Shown here piece by piece: positions 16,508 through 63,804 of a stretch of 64,000 nucleotides of DNA. Source of the stretch: Anaerolineae bacterium (lineage in GTDB: Bacteria > Chloroflexota > Anaerolineae > UBA1429); the NCBI GenBank assembly GCA_963675785.1, contig OY776562.1, forward strand, positions 2,920,934 through 2,984,933, read 5' to 3'. The notes beneath the pieces are model-generated. The model was not told the DNA's origin, searched no databases, and was given only the letters and a program-made list of their open reading frames with translations. The stretch's first letter is position 1. Every line of letters starts with the position of its first letter. The translations under genes and the position numbers were made by a program.

Positions 16508-16580
16508 GGGGCTGTAGCTCAGCTGGGAGAGCGCATCAATCGCACTGATGAGGCCAGGGGTTCGAATCCCCTCAGCTCCA
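16508..16580 (+). tRNA. tRNA-Ala (anticodon CGC)
   Basis: Acceptor GGGGCTG/CAGCTCC with the G3:U70 alanine identity pair. Anticodon loop ATCGCAC. T-arm GGGGTTCGAATCCCC. Confidence 0.9.
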
Positions 16581-16606
16581 CTCGGTGGCCTGTAACAATA
16601 TAATAT

Positions 16607-16679
<73 letters not shown>

Positions 16680-16721
16680 CTCAACACCCCTTAACCCTGC
16701 CAGCACAGGGTAATAATTGGA

Positions 16722-35873: not shown

Positions 35874-36704
35874 TCAATTCAACATCTTTAAACAGAGTGC
35901 CGTGATTAGGGCTCCGACGATGGTACTGATGAGATCGATAGTCTCGTCAGTGATCCAACCGATGCCCCGGACATACTCGGCCGGATGTCCTTCCGAGTCG
36001 GTTTCTTGCTGACTAAAACGCTTGCAAATATTGCAATAATACATTGCCTGTGCGGTTTGCGCTAGGATGCTATCTACTAGCATACCGACGAATCCGCCGA
36101 TGGTGGCTGCCAGAGGAAGCCATAGGCGATCCTGTGGCCAGTATTGCTGAGAGGCCAACATCGGCAAAGAGCTGGTCAAGAGTCCAACCAGACCGATAAG
36201 CCATCCACCACCCAAAGAAGCTACAAGACCCAGTGTAGAGATGGCCCCGGGTGTGCCAGGGGGAACGGGAATTTTGCTGGTCAAAAGCCGTGGTTTGTCT
36301 TTTGAGAGCAGGCCGATTTCCGTTGCCCAGACATCAGCGGTGGCGACGGAAAGAGAGCCAATAAAAATCGGAAAGAGGCTAAATTCGGGCAAAAAAAGTT
36401 GGGCTGCTGCCATGGCTGTAGGCCAGCCAAGGCGCGAAGCTACTGCAACGCCGCTGAGATTCTTTCGGGAGGACTGTGCCTTTTGCTCAGAGCTAATCCC
36501 CATCAAACTCCAGTAAACCTGAGCGCCGATGAATACGATCAGTGGCACGGCCCATGCCCAACCCTTGCTGGCTGTAACAATGACGATAATGATTGCAGAG
36601 ACAAGCATTCCAGACCGTGAATAAACTTGAAAGCGATGTCCCATGTAAAGGATGCCAAAAGAGACAAGAGCGAGTAGGGATAATACCCAGATTGGTGTAC
36701 TCAT
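35874..36704 (-). CDS. DUF92/TMEM19-like integral membrane protein
   Basis: Polytopic, with a Gly-rich helix pattern (PGAISTLGLVASLGGGWLIGLVG). The ATG overlaps the upstream TGA as ATGA. Confidence 0.5.
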   Translation of the reverse strand: MSTPIWVLSLLALVSFGILYMGHRFQVYSRSGMLVSAIIIVIVTASKGWAWAVPLIVFIGAQVYWSLMGISSEQKAQSSRKNLSGVAVASRLGWPTAMAAAQLFLPEFSLFPIFIGSLSVATADVWATEIGLLSKDKPRLLTSKIPVPPGTPGAISTLGLVASLGGGWLIGLVGLLTSSLPMLASQQYWPQDRLWLPLAATIGGFVGMLVDSILAQTAQAMYYCNICKRFSQQETDSEGHPAEYVRGIGWITDETIDLISTIVGALITALCLKMLN

Positions 36705-51077: not shown

Positions 51078-52139
51078 ATGGATGATACACTCGACAGAGC
51101 TACTCGAGCTCTTGCAGCACTACAACTAGACGAAGCAGCTAGCCTTTATCAGTCGTTGATTGATCAGGACGATGAAAATTACGAGGCCTGGATAGGCTTT
51201 GCCAAAACACTCACCAAACAACGCAAAACGGATGAGGCATTTGCCGCTGCGAACAAGTGCATAGCGCTCGATCCCGAACGATGGGATGGATATGCCTCGC
51301 TGGGCACGCTCTCTTTTCTGATAGACGAAAACGACCAGGCTATCGAAGAGCTGAAAAGGGCTGTCAGCCTGAATGCCTCAGAGCCAGAACCTCTCTTGAC
51401 CCTCTCGCAAGTATATGCTGAGAAGGAAGAGTTTGAGCTAGCTGAAGATTCTCTTCGCGAAGGGCAGTCGCTCGTTGACCAGATGGAAGAGGGCACAGAA
51501 AAGCGAGCCATGCAGGCCTTTGCCCTACACGTCAAGACCTATCTTTTGCTCTCTAGGGGCGAAAACGATGCCGCTTTTGAGACGGCTCAAGAGATCATTG
51601 CCTACAAGGATGCTAATCCTCACGCTGCTTGTCTGGCTTATTCGACATTGGGCATTCTCTCTTGGCGCGATAAAGATATGGACGCTGCCCAAGAGTATCT
51701 CGAACAGGCTCACGAGCTAAATCCCTACTTTAGCCGTTCGGCTGCAACTCTGGGACAATTGTACTATATGCGACAACAGTACGATAGGGCCGTAGAGGTT
51801 CTTGGAGATGCCGTGGCGCTCAACCCGCGGACAGATGGGGCAATTCACTATGCTTACGGCTCGGCGCTCGCCAAGGCCCGACGCCGGCAGGAAGCCCACG
51901 TGCAGTTCAAGGTGGCTATAGAGCAAGGCCTTAAAGGCTTGCCCAAATGGGTGGCTCGCTGGCAGCTCATCTGGTTGGGCACGGTAGGCAGAACGGTCAT
52001 CATCATGTTGGGGCTTGCCTTGGTTGCCGCATGGCTTATCTGGGGTCAGCCAGACATGTCTACACTGACTCTGTTTGGGGCTTTTGCCGTATTCTTGTTG
52101 CTCAGGCGTCTTTTTGGCAAAAAACGAACCAAACAATAG
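51078..52139 (+). CDS. TPR-repeat protein with two C-terminal TM helices
   Basis: Multiple 34-residue TPR-like repeats (A...Y...l..dp....a...lg) and a hydrophobic C-terminus. Confidence 0.7.
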   Translation: MDDTLDRATRALAALQLDEAASLYQSLIDQDDENYEAWIGFAKTLTKQRKTDEAFAAANKCIALDPERWDGYASLGTLSFLIDENDQAIEELKRAVSLNASEPEPLLTLSQVYAEKEEFELAEDSLREGQSLVDQMEEGTEKRAMQAFALHVKTYLLLSRGENDAAFETAQEIIAYKDANPHAACLAYSTLGILSWRDKDMDAAQEYLEQAHELNPYFSRSAATLGQLYYMRQQYDRAVEVLGDAVALNPRTDGAIHYAYGSALAKARRRQEAHVQFKVAIEQGLKGLPKWVARWQLIWLGTVGRTVIIMLGLALVAAWLIWGQPDMSTLTLFGAFAVFLLLRRLFGKKRTKQ

Positions 52140-52168
52140 TTGTCACTGTTCGGCCATCATGCTATACT
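52140..52168 (+). promoter_or_regulatory. Sigma70-type promoter of the alaX-ileS T-box leader
   Basis: TTGTCA (52140..52145), 17-nt spacer, TATACT (52163..52168). Confidence 0.55.
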
Positions 52169-52175
52169 GCTCGCG

Positions 52176-52452
52176 TAAAGGCTTTGACGGAGACCGAAAG
52201 CAGCCAGAGCGTTCAGAGAGTTCACCATCTCGCTGCAAGGTGAACACGCGAAATCTGCTGGATATCACTCTTGAGCCTGCATCCCAAAGGCTTTTGGCCC
52301 AGTAGGCTTGCACGGTTTCATCCACCGTTATCCGGATGCACGCATCGGATCAGTTCCTGTGGGTGTAAAGTGGGCCATTTTGGGCCAACAAGGGTGGTAC
52401 CGCGGAAGCATCTTCGGCTTTCGTCCCTCGAGGACGAAGGCCGTTTCTTTTT
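52176..52452 (+). promoter_or_regulatory. T-box riboswitch leader with intrinsic terminator, upstream of the alaX-like/ileS pair
   Basis: CAGAGAG bulge, UUCACC/GGUGAA stem, specifier region CGCGAAAUCUGCUGG (52248..52262), canonical T-box AACAAGGGUGGUACCGCGG (52388..52406), and terminator CGGCUUUCGUCC-cucga-GGACGAAGGCCG followed by UUUCUUUUU. Confidence 0.85.
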
Positions 52453-52466
52453 AGGAGAATCTGTAC

Positions 52467-53201
52467 ATGACAGAACGCCTTTACCAACTCGATAGCTACC
52501 TGAAAGCATTTGATGCCGTGGTAATGGCTGTCGACAAAGAGCAGGCTGCCATCGAACTCGACCGTACGGCCTTTTATCCCGGTGGAGGCGGCCAACCTTA
52601 TGACAGAGGTACGCTTAGCTGGGATGGAGGAAGCAATTCAGTTGTCAAGATGAGCGGCCACGGCCAGGTGTTGCATTTTTTGGAAGGCGCCCTGCCGTCG
52701 ATTGGTACGCTGGTTCATGGCGAGATTGATTGGCCGTTGCGTTTTGACCACATGCGCACGCATACGGCCATGCATATCCTTTGTGGTGTGGTTTGGCGAG
52801 ATTATGGCGCCCAGGTGACGGGTGGCAACATGACGCCACGCCAGGGGCGGATGGATTTCGAGTTCGAGAACCTCAGCAAAGAGCTGGTAGCTGAGATCGA
52901 GGAAAAGGTTAACATCGAGGTTCAAGCAGATCGTCCGATTCGCGTGGCTATACATTCTCGAAAAGAGGCTTTTGCCATCCCCGACCTAATACGCACCAAG
53001 ATCAATCTTTTGCCAGAAGGCATTGAGCAGATACGAACGGTGGAAATTGTGGGACTGGATTTGCAGGCTGATGGCGGAACGCATGTTTCTAATACAGCGC
53101 AGGTGGGCCCTATCACCATTGTAGGATACAAGAGCAAGGGACGTATCAACAAGCGTATCGAAGTCGCCCTTGATGAGGTTCAGTTGGAGGGACAAAAGTA
53201 G
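52467..53201 (+). CDS. AlaX-M-like tRNA editing protein (Thr/Ala-tRNA synthetase second additional domain, COG2872-like)
   Basis: LDRTAFYPGGGGQPYDRG, HTAMHIL (HxxxH) and DGGTHV motifs. 244 aa. Confidence 0.75.
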   Translation: MTERLYQLDSYLKAFDAVVMAVDKEQAAIELDRTAFYPGGGGQPYDRGTLSWDGGSNSVVKMSGHGQVLHFLEGALPSIGTLVHGEIDWPLRFDHMRTHTAMHILCGVVWRDYGAQVTGGNMTPRQGRMDFEFENLSKELVAEIEEKVNIEVQADRPIRVAIHSRKEAFAIPDLIRTKINLLPEGIEQIRTVEIVGLDLQADGGTHVSNTAQVGPITIVGYKSKGRINKRIEVALDEVQLEGQK

Positions 53202-57815: not shown

Positions 57816-60035
57816 ATGATCCCTTTGGATCTCTTTGCTCATGCTCGAAATGAACAGAATGAACATGAGGCCCCCTTGGCCGCACGGATGCGCCCTCGCA
57901 ACCTGGATGAGTTCATTGGCCAGGAGCACGTGGTGGGCCCTGGCCGCTTGCTGCGCCGCGCCATCCAGGCCGACCAGCTCTCGTCGCTGATCTTTTACGG
58001 GCCGCCAGGTACGGGAAAAACCACGTTGGCTATGGTAATTGCCAACACGACCAGTTCTCGCTTTGTAACGCTGAATGCTGTATTGGCTGGCGTGCAGGAT
58101 ATTCGCAAAGTGACAGCCGAGGCACGTGAAGACCGCGATCTCTATGGACGTCGCACCATCCTTTTTGTGGACGAGGTACACCGCTGGAACAAGGCCCAGC
58201 AGGACGCACTGCTGCCCTGGGTAGAGAACGGCACCATTGTCATGATTGGTGCGACGACGGAGAATCCCTGGTTTTCGGTGAATAAAGCGCTGTTGAGTCG
58301 CAGCCGTGTCTTTCAACTCGTGCCCCTCAGTGAGGGCGATTTACTCAAGATCGCCGAACAAGCTATTGCTGATGCCGAGCGCGGCTATGGCAAGTTGAAT
58401 GTCATCATCCAGCCGGATGCTATGGACCATCTGGTGAATGTGGCTAACGGTGATGCGCGCTCGCTACTCAATGCTTTGGAATTGGCTGTCGAGACCACCG
58501 ACCCTGATAACCAGGGGCGAACCATCATTAGTCTTGCTGTGGCTGAAGAATCTATTCAACGCCGCGCTGTGCTTTACGATCGTGAAGGCGATTATCACTT
58601 TGATACCATTAGTGCTTTTATCAAATCGATTCGCGGCTCTGATCCAGATGCGGCCCTCTATTGGCTTTCTAAAATGGTTTATGCTGGCGAAGACCCGCGT
58701 TTCATCTTTCGGCGGCTGCTCATTTCTGCCAGCGAGGATATCGGTTTGGCCGATCCACAGGCTTTGCGTGTGGTAGAGAGCGCTGCTGCCACCTTTGATC
58801 GTGTCGGATTGCCAGAGGGCCAGTTTCACTTGGCGGAGGCTACGCTCTACCTGGCCACTGCGCCCAAGTCCAATTCGACAATGGGCTATTTCGATGCTTT
58901 GGAGGTGGTTCGCACCGAACGTAGTTCGGATGTGCCAGCACATCTCAAGGATGCTAGTCGCGACAAAGAGGGTTTTGGCCACGGTGAGGGGTATTTGTAT
59001 CCCCATGCTTATCGTGATCACTGGGTAGCTCAGCAATATCTACCCTCCTCGCTGCAAGGGCGTCTGTTCTACGAGCCCGGCGATCAGGGCTATGAAAAGA
59101 GTATTCAGGTACAGGTTCAGCAACGCCGCGAGGCCCAATTGGCAGCAGTGGTGGATACCTCCGATGCCGCTGATGTGCTCACCTTTTCGCCGGTGAATGC
59201 GAACGAGAGCCACTGGCTGACGCGAGCCATCGGTTCTGTCGGTCAGGAATTGGCCAATCTTCGCGAGATCGTCTTTGGTCAGGAGCGCTGGGAACGCCAT
59301 TGGTTGGTTTTGGATCTCAACGCCGGTTCTGGTTTGCTTACCTGGGAAGCACTGCGCCGGGTGCCCGAAGGTGGTGTATGGGTTTTGGTGGACAATGAAT
59401 CGACGGCACAGGCACTCATCGAACAATCCCAACATCTTACCCAGTTGTCCCGACCGCAGGTGTGGGGGGGAGCAATCCCCGATGTGACTGAACATGCGGA
59501 TGTGCGTTTCGACCGCATCATAGGGCGAAATGCGCTAGGCTCACTTCAGGACAAGGCGAGCGCTTTGAAGGCGATTGCAGATATATTAGCTGCTGAAGGT
59601 GCGCTAAGCCTGGTAGAGGCCATTCCCTCGCGGGCACAACGTCTATCCGATCTGTTGAACACTTCCGCCTGGCCCCAGGGCCTTGCTGGCGCCTTTCGCG
59701 AACTGGAAGAAGAACTCTATAACGATCCCACCAGTCCTTTGACCAATTGGAAGGCAGATGATCTGGCCGCATTTGCTACGGAAGCGGGATTGCGCCTGGT
59801 TCAAGTGACCACTGTACCTCTTGAACGTCAGGTGCTCATCAATGCCAAAACAATTGAGGGCTGGTTTGGCGAGGGAAGCAAAAAGGGAGCTCCGTCTTTG
59901 GGACAGCGCCTTAGGAGCACCTTGAGCGACGATCAGGTGGGTACTATTGAATTGGCTTGCCGAACTCAGCTTGTTGGTGATCCTGTGCCCTGGCATGCCG
60001 AATATGTCCATCTCCAGGCTGCGCGGGGCCGCTAG
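57816..60035 (+). CDS. rarA: Replication-associated recombination protein A (RarA/MgsA AAA+ ATPase) fused to a C-terminal class I SAM-methyltransferase-like domain
   Basis: The N-terminal ~425 aa have [32 protein letters not shown] and the MgsA_C pattern. The C-terminal ~300 aa have [12 protein letters not shown] (motif I-like) and [10 protein letters not shown]. Confidence 0.8.
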
Positions 60036-61937: not shown

Positions 61938-62623
61938 TCCCCGACCATCCAAGCTAGTGAGTGGGCTCCGCGATACGTTTTTAGGTCTGTGTATGCGATA
62001 TGAGCAAACTCTGCCAATAATACGACATGGTATTCTACCAACCCCTAAAATAGCTGTCAAGCAGTGCTAAAATGCATGTTTGTGCAATGTGCCCTCTTGT
62101 TCTTAGGGTTTCAATTTCAGGGGATTTAGAGAGATTGTGCTACTTTTAACCGTGCCATTCGATTTAGTTCTAGGGTGAAAGGCCCCAGTGTTTTAGGAGC
62201 AAAGTCAGAGCTAGTGTTGAAACTTGAACTAGATTTAACGACTATTCTTTTACTATAATCACAAATAGAGTCTTTGGATGCAACTATTTGGTCAGGAGAC
62301 GTGGTTCGCGCCGTGGACTTTGGCATCGAGGCAGGTTAGGAGCAAGATAGTTTCTTTATAGTTAATTGAAATAACCACATCATTATTGACTGCAGTTCCT
62401 GATGGGGCGTGAGCATGCGCCGAGAGTCGTTTGTTTGGTGCTATGTGCACAAAGTTTTGAGCTACGGTGCCTGCTGCGAGGAAAGGCTCTTCTAGCAGAA
62501 CTGTAAAAGTGCGGCATCATTTGAGAACTGGCTAAGCAGCATCAAGAGATTTTTCAGAATAGCAGCTTCTAATCTGGATTGGTACGATAGCCGTGGAGAT
62601 GAATGCGTCACAAGGGCATGACC

Positions 62624-62662
62624 ACAAAATAAGAGGACATCCTACAGGGATGTCCTCTTATT
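62624..62662. terminator. Rho-independent terminator hairpin abutting the stop of the 62663 gene
   Basis: AAGAGGACATCC-tacag-GGATGTCCTCTT, a 12-bp perfect stem with T-rich flanks on both strands. Confidence 0.75.
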
Positions 62663-62992
62663 TTATGATTCTAGCGCTTTGCGTACAGCCTGAATAATTT
62701 GGAATCCATCAGCTGTGCCCACTGCTGCCAGTTGATTGTTTACAAAGGCGAGGGGATAAAATACGTATCCTCGCTCATGCTCTGTTTGCTTGATAAGCTG
62801 AGCATATTCTTGCGGAAGCTCACCATTGTCTATGTCAAAGTAGGTCAAGCTGACCTGGTCGCCGAACATACGCTCGAGTTGAAGCCGTGTGATCTCGCTA
62901 GTCTCCGCCGAAGACCTGCGCGGGCCTCAACCACCGCCGCAGAACTCGGCACCGGTCTGGCCGAGAATGAGCACCTTAACTTTTTCCGCCAT
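62663..62992 (-). CDS. Small thioredoxin-fold protein (YuzD/DUF1462-like) with in-frame TGA at codon 22: candidate selenoprotein (or a pseudogene)
   Basis: ATG 62992, 5 nt after GAGAGGG, opens MAEKVKVLILGQTGAEFCGGG. TGA (62929..62927) follows, and the same frame continues GPRRSSAETSEITRLQLERMFGDQ... into the ORF-track ORF 62663..62869. Confidence 0.5.
62896..62920 (-). promoter_or_regulatory. Hairpin 7 nt downstream of the in-frame UGA (possible bacterial SECIS)
   Basis: CGC-A-GGUCU / UCGGCGG loop / AGACU-A-GCG. An alternative fold is CCGCG/C(G)GCGG with apical loop CAGGUCUU. Confidence 0.3.
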
Positions 62993-63070
62993 GTATACCC
63001 TCTCATACCTTTATACCCAGGGTGGGTACGCAAAATATACCATTGATGGTCTCGTCAGTCAATCGGCCGG

Positions 63071-63099
63071 TTGACACCTGTACCCCTCAACCATATAAT
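63071..63099 (+). promoter_or_regulatory. Consensus sigma70 promoter upstream of the HAD hydrolase gene
   Basis: TTGACA (63071..63076), exactly 17 nt, TATAAT (63094..63099). Confidence 0.6.
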
Positions 63100-63189: not shown

Positions 63190-63804
63190 ATGCCTATCAA
63201 GGCCTTTGTCTTTGACTGCGGAGGCGTGCTTTTTCGCGATGGTGACCTGACGCCCTATGACGTCTGGGCAGAGCGTGCTGGAATTACACCAGAGGCGTTA
63301 CGTCAGCTTTTATGGGCCAGTGATTTTTGGCGTCAGGCCGAGTGTGGCCAGATTACAGATGCACGTTACTGGGAATTGATTCTGCAAGAGCTGGGCCTCG
63401 ACGATGAGACTTCACCCCAGGATCTTAAGCAGGATCTTTGGACAACGTGGGAGCTTGATTCTGCCCTGATAGAAACGATTGACGAGCTCCGAAAGCACTA
63501 TTCCGTTTCAATGCTTAGCAATGCAACTGATGATCTGGAGTGCATTCTCGATACGTTTGGGGTTTCGGATCGTTTTGAGCATATCATCAATTCTGCACGG
63601 GTAGGCACTGCCAAACCCGATAAAGCGATTTTTGCCCACACGCTCGAACGAATTGGCTTTGAACCAGATCAAGTTGTATTTATTGACGACCGCGCTGAGA
63701 ATATCACTGCAGCTTCGGGTGTGGGGATGCATGTCATCTGGTATGTTGGTCTAAATGAACTGCGTCGCCGCCTCTCCTTGTTCGATCATAACCTCTCTTT
63801 TTAA
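63190..63804 (+). CDS. HAD-superfamily hydrolase (subfamily IA)
   Basis: Motif I FVFDCGGVL, motif II LSNAT and motif IV FIDDRAENI. Confidence 0.8.
   Translation: MPIKAFVFDCGGVLFRDGDLTPYDVWAERAGITPEALRQLLWASDFWRQAECGQITDARYWELILQELGLDDETSPQDLKQDLWTTWELDSALIETIDELRKHYSVSMLSNATDDLECILDTFGVSDRFEHIINSARVGTAKPDKAIFAHTLERIGFEPDQVVFIDDRAENITAASGVGMHVIWYVGLNELRRRLSLFDHNLSF

What the first reader, a model, noticed from the sequence alone, without database searches (positions are those of the whole stretch)
62663..62992. Candidate selenoprotein: thioredoxin-fold mini-protein with a C-x3-U motif and a hairpin after the UGA
- **Seen, frame:** the 68-aa ORF at 62663..62869 is only the C-terminal two thirds of a longer frame. 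Read upstream, the same frame gives ATG (62992..62990, with GAGAGGG 5 nt upstream), then AEKVKVLILGQTGAEFCGGG, then TGA (62929..62927), then GPRRSSAETSEITRLQLER-MFGDQ....
- **Seen, position:** the single in-frame TGA sits 4 codons after a Cys. That is the end of a beta-strand-like KVKVLILG segment, where thioredoxin-fold proteins carry their CxxC.
- **Size and motif:** the full frame is 109 codons. This is about the size I recall for YuzD/DUF1462-type proteins, and their FYPL core motif is present (YVFYPLAFV).
- **Seen, hairpin:** a GC-rich hairpin begins 7 nt after the UGA (62920..62896).
- **No global recoding:** TGA is a true stop elsewhere in the window (ruvB, and the gene ending at 36701).
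- **Inference:** the codon is read as Sec. The alternative is a nonsense-mutated pseudogene.
Basis: partly seen in the sequence, partly recalled or inferred. Interest (0 to 1): 0.7.

Follow-up and report, generated by a model that had tools for sequence, protein, structure and literature searches.

The report
Uncatalogued selenoprotein family in Anaerolineae
A small thioredoxin-like gene in this Anaerolineae genome carries an in-frame UGA that is almost certainly read as selenocysteine, and it represents a family that public databases annotate only as truncated proteins lacking their active site.

Summary
Window 62992..62663 (-) is one 109-codon frame with a single TGA at codon 22.

- **Conservation of the TGA:** every relative found keeps it at the same column. 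This covers 34 distinct sequences: 27 Chloroflexota/Anaerolineae genomes plus metagenome contigs, down to about 35% identity. An exhaustive codon-blind protein search gave the same result.
- **Translation on both sides:** against a 75%-identical relative, all 7 differences in the 31 flanking codons are synonymous.
- **Hairpin:** 17 nt downstream lies a 7-bp hairpin with a G-[G/U]-N loop. It is invariant at synonymous sites where neighbouring conserved codons vary freely. It meets the published bacterial SECIS criteria.
- **Protein:** it is a DUF1462/YuzD-like thioredoxin fold. Sec aligns with the second Cys of the CxxC of PDB 1xg8.
- **Code:** TGA is a normal stop elsewhere in the window.
- **Cys forms:** none of the family was found.
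- **Novelty:** the family is absent from a 2026 catalogue of 119 prokaryotic selenoprotein families and from NCBIfam. Public records call only 58-88 aa fragments.
- **Not shown:** selA/selB/selD/tRNA-Sec in this genome (only about 73 kb was accessible), and selenium in the protein.

The parts
62663..62992 (-). Whole gene: 109 sense codons, comprising ATG, 20 further codons, UGA (Sec22), 87 codons and then TAA. It encodes a DUF1462/YuzD-like thioredoxin-fold protein.
   Evidence: Translation. Pfam PF07315 scores 28.7 bits against a cut-off of 25 only when the part upstream of the TGA is included. The family profile matches PDB 1xg8 at E = 1.7e-6. Gene callers report only the 68-aa tail.
62927..62929 (-). 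In-frame TGA, codon 22, the proposed selenocysteine codon.
   Evidence: It is invariant in 34 distinct relatives. It aligns with Cys22 of the CxxC motif in 1xg8. TGA is an ordinary stop for 9 of 37 long ORFs in the window.
62939..62941 (-). Cys18 codon (TGC), the partner of Sec22 in the C-x3-U motif.
   Evidence: A Cys lies 2-5 residues upstream of U in every member. Its codon varies as TGT 8 and TGC 8 at the main column, which shows selection at the protein level.
62930..62992 (-). N-terminal coding part (codons 1-21): the beta-1 strand KVKVLILG plus the loop leading to the redox motif.
   Evidence: Against L001, 4 of 4 differences in the 12 comparable codons are third-position and synonymous. 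Across the family the amino acids are conserved while the codons vary. The AlphaFold model of relative P0003 has beta-1 at residues 7-13.
62900..62916 (-). SECIS-like upper hairpin GGUCUUC-GGC-GGAGACU: a 7-bp stem and a 3-nt loop that starts 17 nt after the UGA.
   Evidence: All 7 pairs are kept in 30 of 30 aligned sequences, and the hairpin is the same in 4 deeper relatives. Third-position entropy is 0 bits at codons +4 to +8 and 0.35 at +9, against 0.9-1.9 bits at the adjacent invariant Gly and Pro codons. The loop is always G-[G/U]-N. The element meets the criteria stated in PMC13188914.
62896..62920 (-). Hairpin including the 3-bp lower stem (CGC / GCG).
   Evidence: It folds at -9.8 kcal/mol with z = -2.2. 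Across the family the lower stem is only partly kept: pairs 16-40 and 17-39 form in 20 of 30 sequences, with several pair types. The covariation score is 0.119 against 0.056 in shuffles.
62998..63004 (-). Shine-Dalgarno-like GAGAGGG, 5 nt upstream of the ATG.
   Evidence: Read directly from the sequence. In nearly all family members (all but L013) a GGAG-type motif precedes a start codon 18-27 codons upstream of the UGA.
63034..63062 (-). Promoter-like site: TTGACT, 17 nt, TATATT, with TG before the -10 element.
   Evidence: Consensus scan, 10 of 12 matches. This is a consensus match only and is not evidence of function.
62622..62668 (-). Intrinsic-terminator-like hairpin overlapping the TAA stop, followed by UUAUUUU.
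   Evidence: Folds at -30.8 kcal/mol, z = -9.7, with 0 of 200 shuffles as stable. Relative L001 has a hairpin of different sequence at the same place (-25 kcal/mol, z = -7.1). The terminator scan itself did not list it.

Best explanation
The locus is a monocistronic gene for a 109-residue cytoplasmic thioredoxin-fold protein of the DUF1462/YuzD type. Its codon 22, UGA, is decoded as selenocysteine.

**Shown**
- The frame is continuous apart from one TGA.
- Both sides of the TGA are under purifying selection in this frame.
- The TGA is invariant across the whole family.
- A 17-nt hairpin, 10 nt downstream of the UGA, is frozen at synonymous sites.
- The Sec column corresponds to the second Cys of the CxxC redox motif of the solved family member.

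**Inferred**
- During translation, SelB-GTP-Sec-tRNA(Sec) binds the apical part of the hairpin (loop G-G-C, 17 nt after the UGA) and delivers Sec to the A site, as in E. coli fdhF.
- The product carries a Cys18...Sec22 pair in the loop between beta-1 and alpha-1. This pair cycles between a selenol/thiol state and a selenenylsulfide, and acts as a small thiol-disulfide-type oxidoreductase. Its substrate is unknown.
- The hairpin is invariant because the same 17 nt must encode R-S-S-x-E-T (the N-cap of helix alpha-1) and also form the SelB-binding stem. Neither synonymous nor compensatory changes are then tolerated.
For: 1. **Frame and motif** are confirmed.
2. **Comparison with the 75%-identical relative L001/L002.** The TGA is kept. 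In the 31 flanking codons, 7 of 7 differences are third-position and synonymous, giving 100% amino-acid identity. The C-terminal 69 codons have 18 nonsynonymous codons and 74% nucleotide identity.
3. **Exhaustive codon-blind phmmer search of 1.84 billion representatives** with the 87 residues after the TGA. It finds 9 family representatives. Seven have TGA at the column by direct DNA inspection. The other two are near-identical to the proteins of genome loci L020 and L026, which have TGA. P0003's 'W' is a TGA read under another genetic code.
4. **Genome scan.** 27 true members were found, all from Chloroflexota/Anaerolineae MAGs. Each has a start codon 18-27 codons upstream of the UGA, nearly all with a GGAG-like motif.
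5. **RNA.** Third-position entropy is 0 at codons +4 to +8, although the search pattern allowed any Arg, Ser, Ser, Glu or Thr codon. The flanking invariant Gly and Pro codons show 0.9-1.9 bits. The 7-bp stem is kept in 30 of 30 sequences. The loop is GGC, GGA, GUU or GUC and begins 17 nt after the UGA. The window element folds at -9.8 kcal/mol. The criteria are taken from the legend of Fig. 2 of PMC13188914.
6. **Protein.** 27 of 28 members match Pfam DUF1462. The family profile matches 1xg8 at E = 1.7e-6, with the Sec column on Cys22 of C19-A-S-C22. The AlphaFold model has pLDDT 81 and a beta-alpha-beta-alpha-beta-beta-alpha topology. Its top Foldseek hit is 1xg8, followed by thioredoxins.
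7. **No global recoding.** TGA ends 9 of 37 long ORFs in the window and 12 of the 27 genome-derived family genes themselves.
8. **Lineage.** The window's RuvB has only Anaerolineae, Anaerolineales or Chloroflexi among its named nearest relatives. selB and Sec-type FDH are reported in Anaerolineales (PMC4959059).
9. **Same-contig hint.** On family-bearing contig L030, an OsmC-like gene has TGA where three orthologues have Cys, with a tighter downstream hairpin.
Against: - **Sec machinery unverified.** selA, selB, selD and tRNA-Sec were not shown in this genome. None lies in the window, in the extra 8.9 kb of L003, or in any fetched locus. That covers only about 2% of the genome.
- **No covariation in the upper stem.** It never varies, so its structure is supported by frozen synonymous sites rather than by compensatory changes. 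The lower stem is only partly conserved.
- **Weak energies.** The hairpin alone folds at -5.7 kcal/mol in the window, above the -7.5 criterion, which is met only with the lower stem. A 66-nt fold was not significant against shuffles (z = -1.0).
- **No curated RNA match.** No Rfam SECIS model matches.
- **No close Cys homologue**. This is atypical for selenoproteins. The Cys/Sec pairing rests on a remote alignment to 1xg8 (about 19% identity).
- **Low model confidence at the active site.** The redox loop has pLDDT below 50 in the model.
- **No experimental data.**
Confidence: 0.87

Rival explanations
1. The gene is a pseudogene: a DUF1462 gene inactivated by a nonsense mutation (TGC/TGT/TGG to TGA) and now decaying.
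For: Gene callers treat the TGA as a stop and report only the 68-aa tail. No Sec machinery was seen in the accessible DNA.
Against: - The TGA is invariant in 34 distinct sequences from at least 27 species that differ by up to about 65% in protein sequence.
- Both sides of the TGA evolve by synonymous change only in the nearest comparison.
- Amino acids upstream are conserved with varying codons across the family.
- Start codons, mostly preceded by a GGAG-like motif, are kept at a fixed distance upstream.
- Three independent assemblies agree on the sequence.
Confidence: 0.01
2. Two separate products are made. The real protein starts after the TGA, at the Met at 62869 or at another start. The upstream 21 codons form a leader peptide, and the hairpin is a regulatory element such as an attenuator or a translational-coupling signal.
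For: Public annotation uses starts just after the TGA. Hairpins next to short upstream ORFs are common regulators.
Against: - The Met at 62869 is present in only 7 of 30 sequences, and the called starts differ from one relative to the next.
- The 19 codons between the TGA and that Met are the most conserved part of the protein and stay in frame.
- The Pfam DUF1462 and 1xg8 alignments run across the TGA, and the beta-1 strand and redox motif lie upstream of it.
- A truncated product would lack beta-1 of the thioredoxin fold and both redox residues.
Confidence: 0.03
3. The UGA is read through without selenocysteine, for example by near-cognate insertion of Trp, Cys or Arg, or by a suppressor tRNA. 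The hairpin would act as a read-through stimulator rather than a SelB-binding SECIS.
For: Sec machinery is unverified in this genome. The upper stem shows no covariation, and no Rfam SECIS model matches. No close Cys homologue exists to show that a thiol or selenol is required at this column.
Against: - The column corresponds to a redox Cys of a CxxC in the solved homologue. A partner Cys is kept 2-5 residues upstream in every member.
- The hairpin meets the stated bSECIS criteria for loop size, stem length, G-[G/U] loop start and 17-nt spacing.
- The lineage is known to contain Sec users.
- If Cys or Trp sufficed, TGY or TGG forms would be expected somewhere among the relatives. None was found.
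Confidence: 0.07
4. The TGA is a sequencing or assembly error, or reflects a genome-wide reassignment of TGA (genetic code 4 or 25).
For: One pipeline translated a relative with TGA read as Trp (P0003).
Against: - The TGA is identical in three non-identical assemblies of the window strain group and in short-read and long-read assemblies from many samples.
- TGA terminates 9 of 37 long ORFs in the window.
- TGA terminates 12 of the 27 genome-derived family genes at the expected C-terminus.
Confidence: 0.01

Closest known systems
DUF1462 / YuzD-like proteins (Pfam PF07315; S. aureus SA0798, PDB 1xg8; B. subtilis YuzD, named 'putative disulfide oxidoreductase')
   Same: - Same size, about 110 residues.
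- Same thioredoxin-like fold: top Foldseek hit, TM 0.61.
- Significant profile match, E = 1.7e-6.
- 27 of 28 members match the Pfam model.
- The F/Y-Y-P-L motif is shared.
- The redox motif sits between beta-1 and alpha-1.
   Different: - The second Cys of the CxxC is replaced by a UGA codon (Sec).
- The Cys-to-Sec spacing varies from x2 to x5 instead of a fixed CxxC.
- The loop after beta-1 is longer.
- The family occurs in Chloroflexota rather than in Bacillota.
- Identity to 1xg8 is only about 19%.
- The 68-aa annotated fragment of the window gene fails the Pfam cut-off on its own.
CxxU thioredoxin-fold selenoproteins (SelW-like / Rdx family, PF10262; other Trx-like bacterial selenoproteins listed in Table 1 of PMC13188914)
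   Same: A small thioredoxin-fold protein with Sec in the C-terminal position of a Cys...Sec redox pair at the start of helix alpha-1. The presumed chemistry is a selenenylsulfide.
   Different: There is no sequence match to PF10262 or to any other family in Pfam or NCBIfam apart from DUF1462. The spacing is mostly x3 or x4 rather than x2. The flanking motif G-G-U-G-P-x-R-S-S-x-E-T is its own.
E. coli fdhF-type bacterial SECIS / SelB recoding
   Same: A hairpin lies inside the coding region just downstream of the UGA. The stem starts 10 nt after the UGA. My recollection of the E. coli minimal element is a 17-nt hairpin placed 11 nt after the UGA; this is from memory and was not checked here. 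The small apical loop begins with G followed by G or U, as in the consensus model quoted in PMC13188914.
   Different: The sequence is unrelated to the fdhF element. No bulged U is evident. The loop has only 3 nt if the U-G and C-G closing pairs form. The element is invariant across a whole bacterial class, whereas bacterial SECIS elements are described as poorly conserved (PMC13188914, PMC13326102).
Sec-containing thioredoxin and glutaredoxin (UxxC forms, PF00085 / PF00462)
   Same: Thioredoxin fold, with a redox dyad in which one residue is Sec.
   Different: In those proteins Sec takes the N-terminal position (UxxC, Table 1 of PMC13188914). Here it takes the C-terminal position. They belong to different Pfam families.

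Membership tests
Bacterial selenoprotein gene (Sec-UGA plus bSECIS; criteria as stated in PMC13188914) | An in-frame UGA conserved among orthologues, with coding conservation on both sides | tested here: met
   TGA is found in 34 of 34 distinct relatives. 7 of 7 flanking differences against L001 are synonymous. Upstream amino acids are conserved while their codons vary.
Bacterial selenoprotein gene (Sec-UGA plus bSECIS; criteria as stated in PMC13188914) | Apical loop of 3-9 nt and upper stem of 4-16 bp | tested here: met
   The loop is 3 nt and the stem 7 bp in all 30 aligned sequences and in 4 deeper relatives.
Bacterial selenoprotein gene (Sec-UGA plus bSECIS; criteria as stated in PMC13188914) | G in one of the first two loop positions, usually followed by G or U | tested here: met
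   Loop triplets are GGC (16), GGA (8), GUU (5) and GUC (1).
Bacterial selenoprotein gene (Sec-UGA plus bSECIS; criteria as stated in PMC13188914) | 16-37 nt between the UGA and the apical loop | tested here: met
   17 nt in every member.
Bacterial selenoprotein gene (Sec-UGA plus bSECIS; criteria as stated in PMC13188914) | MFE of -7.5 kcal/mol or lower | tested here: inconclusive
   The window element with its lower stem folds at -9.8 kcal/mol. The 48-nt segments fold at -9.6 to -20.6. The 17-nt hairpin alone gives only -5.7 (window) to -7.4. bSECISearch itself could not be run.
Bacterial selenoprotein gene (Sec-UGA plus bSECIS; criteria as stated in PMC13188914) | Cys-containing homologues at the Sec column | tested here: inconclusive
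   A remote Cys homologue exists: Cys22 of 1xg8 aligns with the Sec column. No close Cys form was found in 1.84 billion representatives, in the 90%-identity clusters, or by a TGY motif scan of JGI metagenomes, where all 15 hits were chance matches.
Bacterial selenoprotein gene (Sec-UGA plus bSECIS; criteria as stated in PMC13188914) | selA, selB, selD and tRNA-Sec present in the same genome | not testable with these tools
   Only the window plus 8.9 kb of the 3.2-Mb contig could be read. No tRNA-Sec was found. tblastn with E. coli SelA, SelB and SelD found no hit in 377 kb of held DNA. Lineage-level support only.
Bacterial selenoprotein gene (Sec-UGA plus bSECIS; criteria as stated in PMC13188914) | Selenium demonstrated in the polypeptide | not testable with these tools
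   This needs 75Se labelling or mass spectrometry.
Pfam DUF1462 (PF07315), YuzD-like | Score at or above the curated gathering cut-off | tested here: met
   28.7 bits against a cut-off of 25 for the full 109 residues with U written as C. The 68-aa ORF alone scores 20.1 bits. 27 of 28 family members match at E of 0.01 or lower, with a best E-value of 6.1e-10.
Pfam DUF1462 (PF07315), YuzD-like | Thioredoxin-like fold resembling the solved member 1xg8 | tested here: met
   The AlphaFold model of relative P0003 has pLDDT 81.3 and pTM 0.75. Its best Foldseek PDB hit is 1xg8, with E = 3.2e-4 and TM 0.61. The model is of a 42%-identical relative, not of the window protein itself.
Pfam DUF1462 (PF07315), YuzD-like | CxxC redox motif after beta-1 (as in 1xg8: C19-A-S-C22) | tested here: not met
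   The second Cys is replaced by TGA. The spacing is x3 in the window and x2 to x5 across the family. The motif is C-x(2-5)-U. The family is best described as a Sec-containing, divergent branch of DUF1462 rather than a typical member.
Any of the 119 catalogued prokaryotic selenoprotein families or subfamilies, or an NCBIfam selenoprotein model | Match to the family's domain model, or a listing in the catalogue | tested here: not met
   NCBIfam release 20 gives no match, only a chance Pal hit at E = 0.12. PF07315, DUF1462 and YuzD are absent from Table 1 and from the text of PMC13188914. They are also absent from the deep-Sep paper and its supplements. The BSepDB website itself could not be queried.

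The most novel reading that the evidence does not exclude
This may be an obligate-Sec family: a thioredoxin-fold oxidoreductase lineage in which no Cys form exists anywhere in current sequence space. Its SECIS and the N-cap of helix alpha-1 would be a single dual-coding segment, frozen across an entire bacterial class. If so, the invariant 17-mer GGUCUUCG-NN-GGAGACC would define the recognition element of Anaerolineae SelB. It could be used to enumerate the selenoproteome of this abundant, mostly uncultured class. The family would also be a natural test case for a function that Cys cannot replace.
Probability: 0.3. Interest if true: 0.65.

Novelty: new member of a known kind. Interest (0 to 1): 0.58.

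Why it matters
- **Annotation.** It would add a selenoprotein family (Sec-containing DUF1462/YuzD-like) to the roughly 119 known in prokaryotes, in Anaerolineae, a class abundant in anaerobic digesters, sediments and soils. Public databases currently hold these genes only as 58-88 aa fragments named 'DUF1462 family protein', 'disulfide oxidoreductase YuzD' or 'hypothetical protein'. Those fragments lack beta-1 and both redox residues, so any functional or structural inference drawn from the records is wrong.
- **Why screens may have missed it.** SECIS-independent pipelines rely on Cys/Sec pairs among close homologues (PMC12013277). This family has no close Cys form.
- **The RNA element.** Bacterial SECIS elements are described as poorly conserved. 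This one is invariant across a class, which gives a clean handle on SelB recognition in the lineage.
- **Function of DUF1462.** The Sec position supports a redox-catalytic role for the second Cys of the CxxC in a domain of unknown function.

Tried and rejected
I used the 87 residues after the TGA for the search, and relative P0003 for the model.
2. **The search for related loci on the family alignment failed**, with no stretch conserved enough. I replaced it with a hand-built degenerate DNA pattern. 7 of its 34 genome hits were chance matches (L015, L018, L023, L027, L033, L034, L038).
3. **The 66-nt fold around the UGA was not significant** (z = -1.0). The signal lies in the comparative data, not in the energy of a single sequence.
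4. **Rfam gave nothing**, at gathering threshold or in a sensitive scan of 62840-62960, apart from a chance IRES hit.
5. **Search for Sec machinery.** ARAGORN on the window and 29 loci and tblastn with E. coli SelA, SelB and SelD against 377 kb of held DNA found nothing. The only hit was an EF-like match in a chance Thermococcus locus.
6. **Other selenoprotein genes in the window.** A scan for TGA-split frames gave 81 raw candidates. The one other region that looked coding, 51717-52955 (-), is the antisense strand of two real genes.
7. **Further copies of the hairpin** in 342 kb of Chloroflexota DNA, allowing up to 3 mismatches: only its own reverse complement and noise.
8. **phmmer of a CxxU-type member against the PDB** found nothing useful.
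9. **The literature search for 'YuzD'** was swamped by unrelated strings. 'YuzD' combined with 'thioredoxin' gave 0 papers.
10. **I ran no further search on E. coli Sel proteins.** The tool lists only the best 120 of 8000 candidates, so an Anaerolineae orthologue could not have surfaced.
11. **Conserved gene neighbourhood as a clue to function.** Synteny is only loose: a LonC-like protease convergent downstream in 12 loci, and a CoA-binding protein directly upstream in 8. None of these is adjacent in the window.
Full report
**Observation.** Window 62992..62663 on the minus strand is one continuous reading frame of 109 sense codons. It is interrupted by a single TGA at codon 22 (62929..62927) and reads MAEKVKVLILGQTGAEFCGGG*GPRRSSAETSEITRLQLERMFGDQ...KALES. 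Mechanical ORF calling gives only the 68-residue tail from the Met at 62869. Cys18 lies four codons before the TGA. GAGAGGG lies 5 nt before the ATG. Every sequence statement in the finding is correct.

**The frame is translated across the TGA.** A word-indexed search of 5.8 billion proteins found only the 68-aa fragment itself and one 75%-identical relative, also called as 68 aa. The relative's two contigs, from two different samples, begin inside the N-terminal part and keep the in-frame TGA. Codon by codon against the window:
- The 12 comparable codons before the TGA have 4 differences.
- The 19 codons between the TGA and the Met have 3 differences.
- All 7 differences are third-position and synonymous.
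- The 69 codons after the Met have 54 nucleotide differences and 18 amino-acid changes.

So the segment that gene callers discard is the most strongly constrained part of the protein, and it is constrained in this frame. The gene with its TGA is identical in three closely related but non-identical assemblies, which show 36 and 57 mismatches to the window over 11.3 kb. This excludes a sequencing error.

**The TGA is invariant in the family.** I ran an exhaustive HMMER search of 1.84 billion representatives with the 87 residues after the TGA. That query is blind to the codon in question. It found nine family representatives.
- One, P0003, is 109 aa and reads CRGGWGPRRSS. Its DNA has TGA at the 'W', so a pipeline had used another genetic code.
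- The others are called from starts just after the column.
- Direct DNA inspection shows TGA at the column for seven representatives.
- The remaining two are near-identical to proteins of genome loci that have TGA.

A degenerate DNA pattern encoding G-G-TGA-G-P-x-R-S-S-x-E-T, scanned over 185,579 species genomes, gave 34 loci. Of these, 27 are true members, all from Chloroflexota MAGs (Anaerolineae, Anaerolineales, Anaerolineaceae, 'Chloroflexia'). The other 7 are chance hits in unrelated taxa. Each member has a start codon 18-27 codons upstream of the UGA, nearly all preceded by a GGAG-like motif.

The same pattern with TGY in place of TGA, scanned over the JGI metagenome collection, gave 15 hits. 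All were chance matches with no family context. That collection holds at least six TGA-form contigs. All members of the 90%-identity clusters are 58-88 aa. No Cys form of this family was found.

**The RNA element.** In 30 distinct aligned sequences, third-codon-position entropy is 0 bits at codons +4 to +8 (AGG/CGG, TCT, TCG, NNG, GAG) and 0.35 bits at +9. At the adjacent invariant Gly, Gly, Gly and Pro codons it is 0.9-1.9 bits, and elsewhere about 1.0-1.9 bits. The search pattern allowed any Arg, Ser, Ser, Glu or Thr codon, so this invariance is not an artefact of how the sequences were found. Four deeper relatives that the pattern missed carry the same 17-mer.

The frozen bases form GGUCUUC-G[G/U]N-GGAGAC(C/U). 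This is a 7-bp stem kept in 30 of 30 sequences, with a 3-nt loop that starts 17 nt after the UGA. The bacterial SECIS model quoted in PMC13188914 requires:
- a 3-9 nt loop and a 4-16 bp upper stem;
- a G in the first two loop positions, usually followed by G or U;
- a spacing of 16-37 nt between the UGA and the loop;
- an MFE of -7.5 kcal/mol or lower.

The first three are met in every member. The energy criterion is met by the window element with its lower stem (-9.8 kcal/mol) but not by the bare 17-mer (-5.7 kcal/mol).

Because the upper stem never varies there is no covariation for it. The lower stem shows only partial conservation, with some compensatory changes. My reading (inference) is that the 17 nt are dual-coding. 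They must encode R-S-S-x-E-T, the N-cap of helix alpha-1, and also form the stem, so neither synonymous nor compensatory changes are allowed. No Rfam model matches.

**The protein.**
- With U written as C, the full frame passes the Pfam DUF1462 cut-off (28.7 against 25 bits), and the alignment crosses the TGA. The 68-aa ORF alone fails.
- 27 of 28 full-length members match DUF1462.
- The family profile matches the one solved DUF1462 structure, S. aureus SA0798 (PDB 1xg8), at E = 1.7e-6. The Sec column falls on Cys22.
- 1xg8 reads VVVYGADVI-C19-A-S-C22-VNAPTSKD. Sec therefore replaces the second Cys of a CxxC, and the conserved upstream Cys corresponds to the first.
- The spacing varies: CxxU in two members, Cx3U in the window and in most members, and Cx4U or Cx5U in others.
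- An AlphaFold model of relative P0003 (pLDDT 81, pTM 0.75) has a beta-alpha-beta-alpha-beta-beta-alpha topology, with the redox loop between beta-1 and alpha-1. That loop is of low confidence.
- The model's best PDB match is 1xg8, followed by thioredoxins and ArsD.

**Genetic code and lineage.** TGA terminates 9 of 37 long ORFs in the window and 12 of the 27 genome-derived family genes, so there is no global reassignment. The named nearest relatives of the window's RuvB (72-77% identity) are all Anaerolineae, Anaerolineales or Chloroflexi MAGs. Anaerolineales single-cell genomes carry Sec-type formate dehydrogenases and selB, and Anaerolinea thermophila carries selB (PMC4959059).

I could not test for selA, selB, selD or tRNA-Sec in this genome. 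Only the window and 8.9 further kb of the 3.2-Mb contig were accessible, and they contain none.

One same-contig hint comes from family-bearing contig L030. There an OsmC-like gene has TGA where three orthologues have TGT or TGC. Its downstream hairpin is tighter (-8.9 kcal/mol) than in the Cys forms (-3.2 to -5.9).

**Gene anatomy.** On the minus strand, in order:
- a promoter-like site (63062..63034, a consensus match only);
- the Shine-Dalgarno-like motif;
- the 109-codon frame;
- a strong terminator-like hairpin overlapping the stop (-30.8 kcal/mol, z = -9.7).

A hairpin of different sequence sits at the same place in the 75% relative. The neighbours in the window are a divergent HAD hydrolase gene and a downstream Na/Ca-exchanger gene. 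Synteny across the family is loose: a LonC-like protease convergent downstream in 12 loci, a CoA-binding protein directly upstream in 8, and a PDO-like Grx/Trx protein or OsmC nearby in a few.

**Comparison with what is known.** The mechanism proposed is the standard bacterial one: SelB binding an in-ORF SECIS. The fold family is DUF1462/YuzD. As a selenoprotein family it appears to be uncatalogued.
- PF07315, DUF1462 and YuzD are absent from the 119-entry Table 1 and from the text of the 2026 review PMC13188914.
- They are absent from the deep-Sep paper and its supplements.
- 'DUF1462' occurs in only one unrelated paper in the library searched.
- NCBIfam has no model that matches the protein.
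- Public records name only truncated fragments.

I could not query BSepDB itself.

**Verdict.** It is a new member of a known kind. Two features are unusual: no close Cys homologue exists, and the SECIS is invariant across a whole class. The main gap is the unverified Sec machinery in this genome, together with the lack of any experimental evidence.

Noticed in passing
L030:2764-3186 (+) (CAYLZO010000042.1, uncultured Anaerolineaceae MAG): An OsmC-like gene about 2.3 kb downstream of that contig's DUF1462-type gene has an in-frame TGA where orthologues in L035 and L029 (TGT) and L019 (TGC) have Cys: NTKF*SAAIML against NEKFCSAAIML. The hairpin after the codon folds at -8.9 kcal/mol in the TGA form and at -3.2 to -5.9 in the Cys forms. 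It is a possible second selenoprotein gene on a family-bearing contig. It is a single occurrence, so an error or a pseudogene is not excluded.
   Followed up: partly
P0003-P0041; L005:97-426: Public collections hold this family only as 58-88 aa fragments named 'DUF1462 family protein' (MGI6376699.1), 'disulfide oxidoreductase YuzD' (IMG) or 'hypothetical protein'. The one full-length call (P0003, 109 aa) exists only because a pipeline translated the TGA as Trp.
   Followed up: yes
family alignment A3; L014, L025, L013: The distance between the conserved Cys and Sec differs between subfamilies. It is C-G-G-U (x2) in L014 and L025, C-R-G-G-U (x3) in most members, C-x-P/S-G-G-U (x4) in a large subgroup, and C-R-P-W-G-G-U (x5) in L013. 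This is unusual for a thioredoxin-fold redox dyad, which normally has a fixed spacing.
   Followed up: partly
window 57816-60035 (+): This 739-aa ORF (called as 736 aa in the public record) combines a complete MgsA/RarA-type AAA+ ATPase (RuvB_N, AAA, AAA_assoc_2, MgsA_C) with a C-terminal extension of about 300 residues. The extension contains a VLDLNAGSG stretch that resembles SAM-methyltransferase motif I. It looks like an unusual fusion.
   Followed up: no
window 63071-63099 (+) and 63062-63034 (-): Two promoter-like sites lie back to back in the 197-nt gap between the selenoprotein gene and the divergent HAD-hydrolase gene (63190-63804). The site on the + strand is a perfect 12/12 match: TTGACA, 17 nt, TATAAT.
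   Followed up: no
L006, L008, L022, L047 and others (12 of 26 genome loci); L010, L012 and others (8 loci): Two neighbours of the family gene recur. A LonC-like protease of about 820 aa (LonC_helical, AAA_32, LonB_AAA-LID) lies convergent immediately downstream. A small CoA_binding_2 protein lies immediately upstream on the same strand. Neither is next to the gene in the window.
   Followed up: partly
window 16508-16581 and 16607-16680 (+): Two tRNA-Ala genes (anticodons CGC and GGC) lie in tandem, 25 nt apart. A tRNA-Leu (CAG) lies at 2230-2315. There is no tRNA-Sec in the window.
   Followed up: no
window 51717-52955 (-): This frame has three in-frame TGAs and coding-like codon usage, and a scan for TGA-split genes flagged it. 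It is the antisense strand of two real + strand genes (51078-52139, Ldh_2 family, and 52467-53201). It is an example of how such scans give false positives.
   Followed up: yes
P0009 (591 aa): This long protein matched residues 37-65 of the query in 7 separate stretches (E = 7.4e-6). It is presumably a repeat protein unrelated to the family. I did not inspect it.
   Followed up: no
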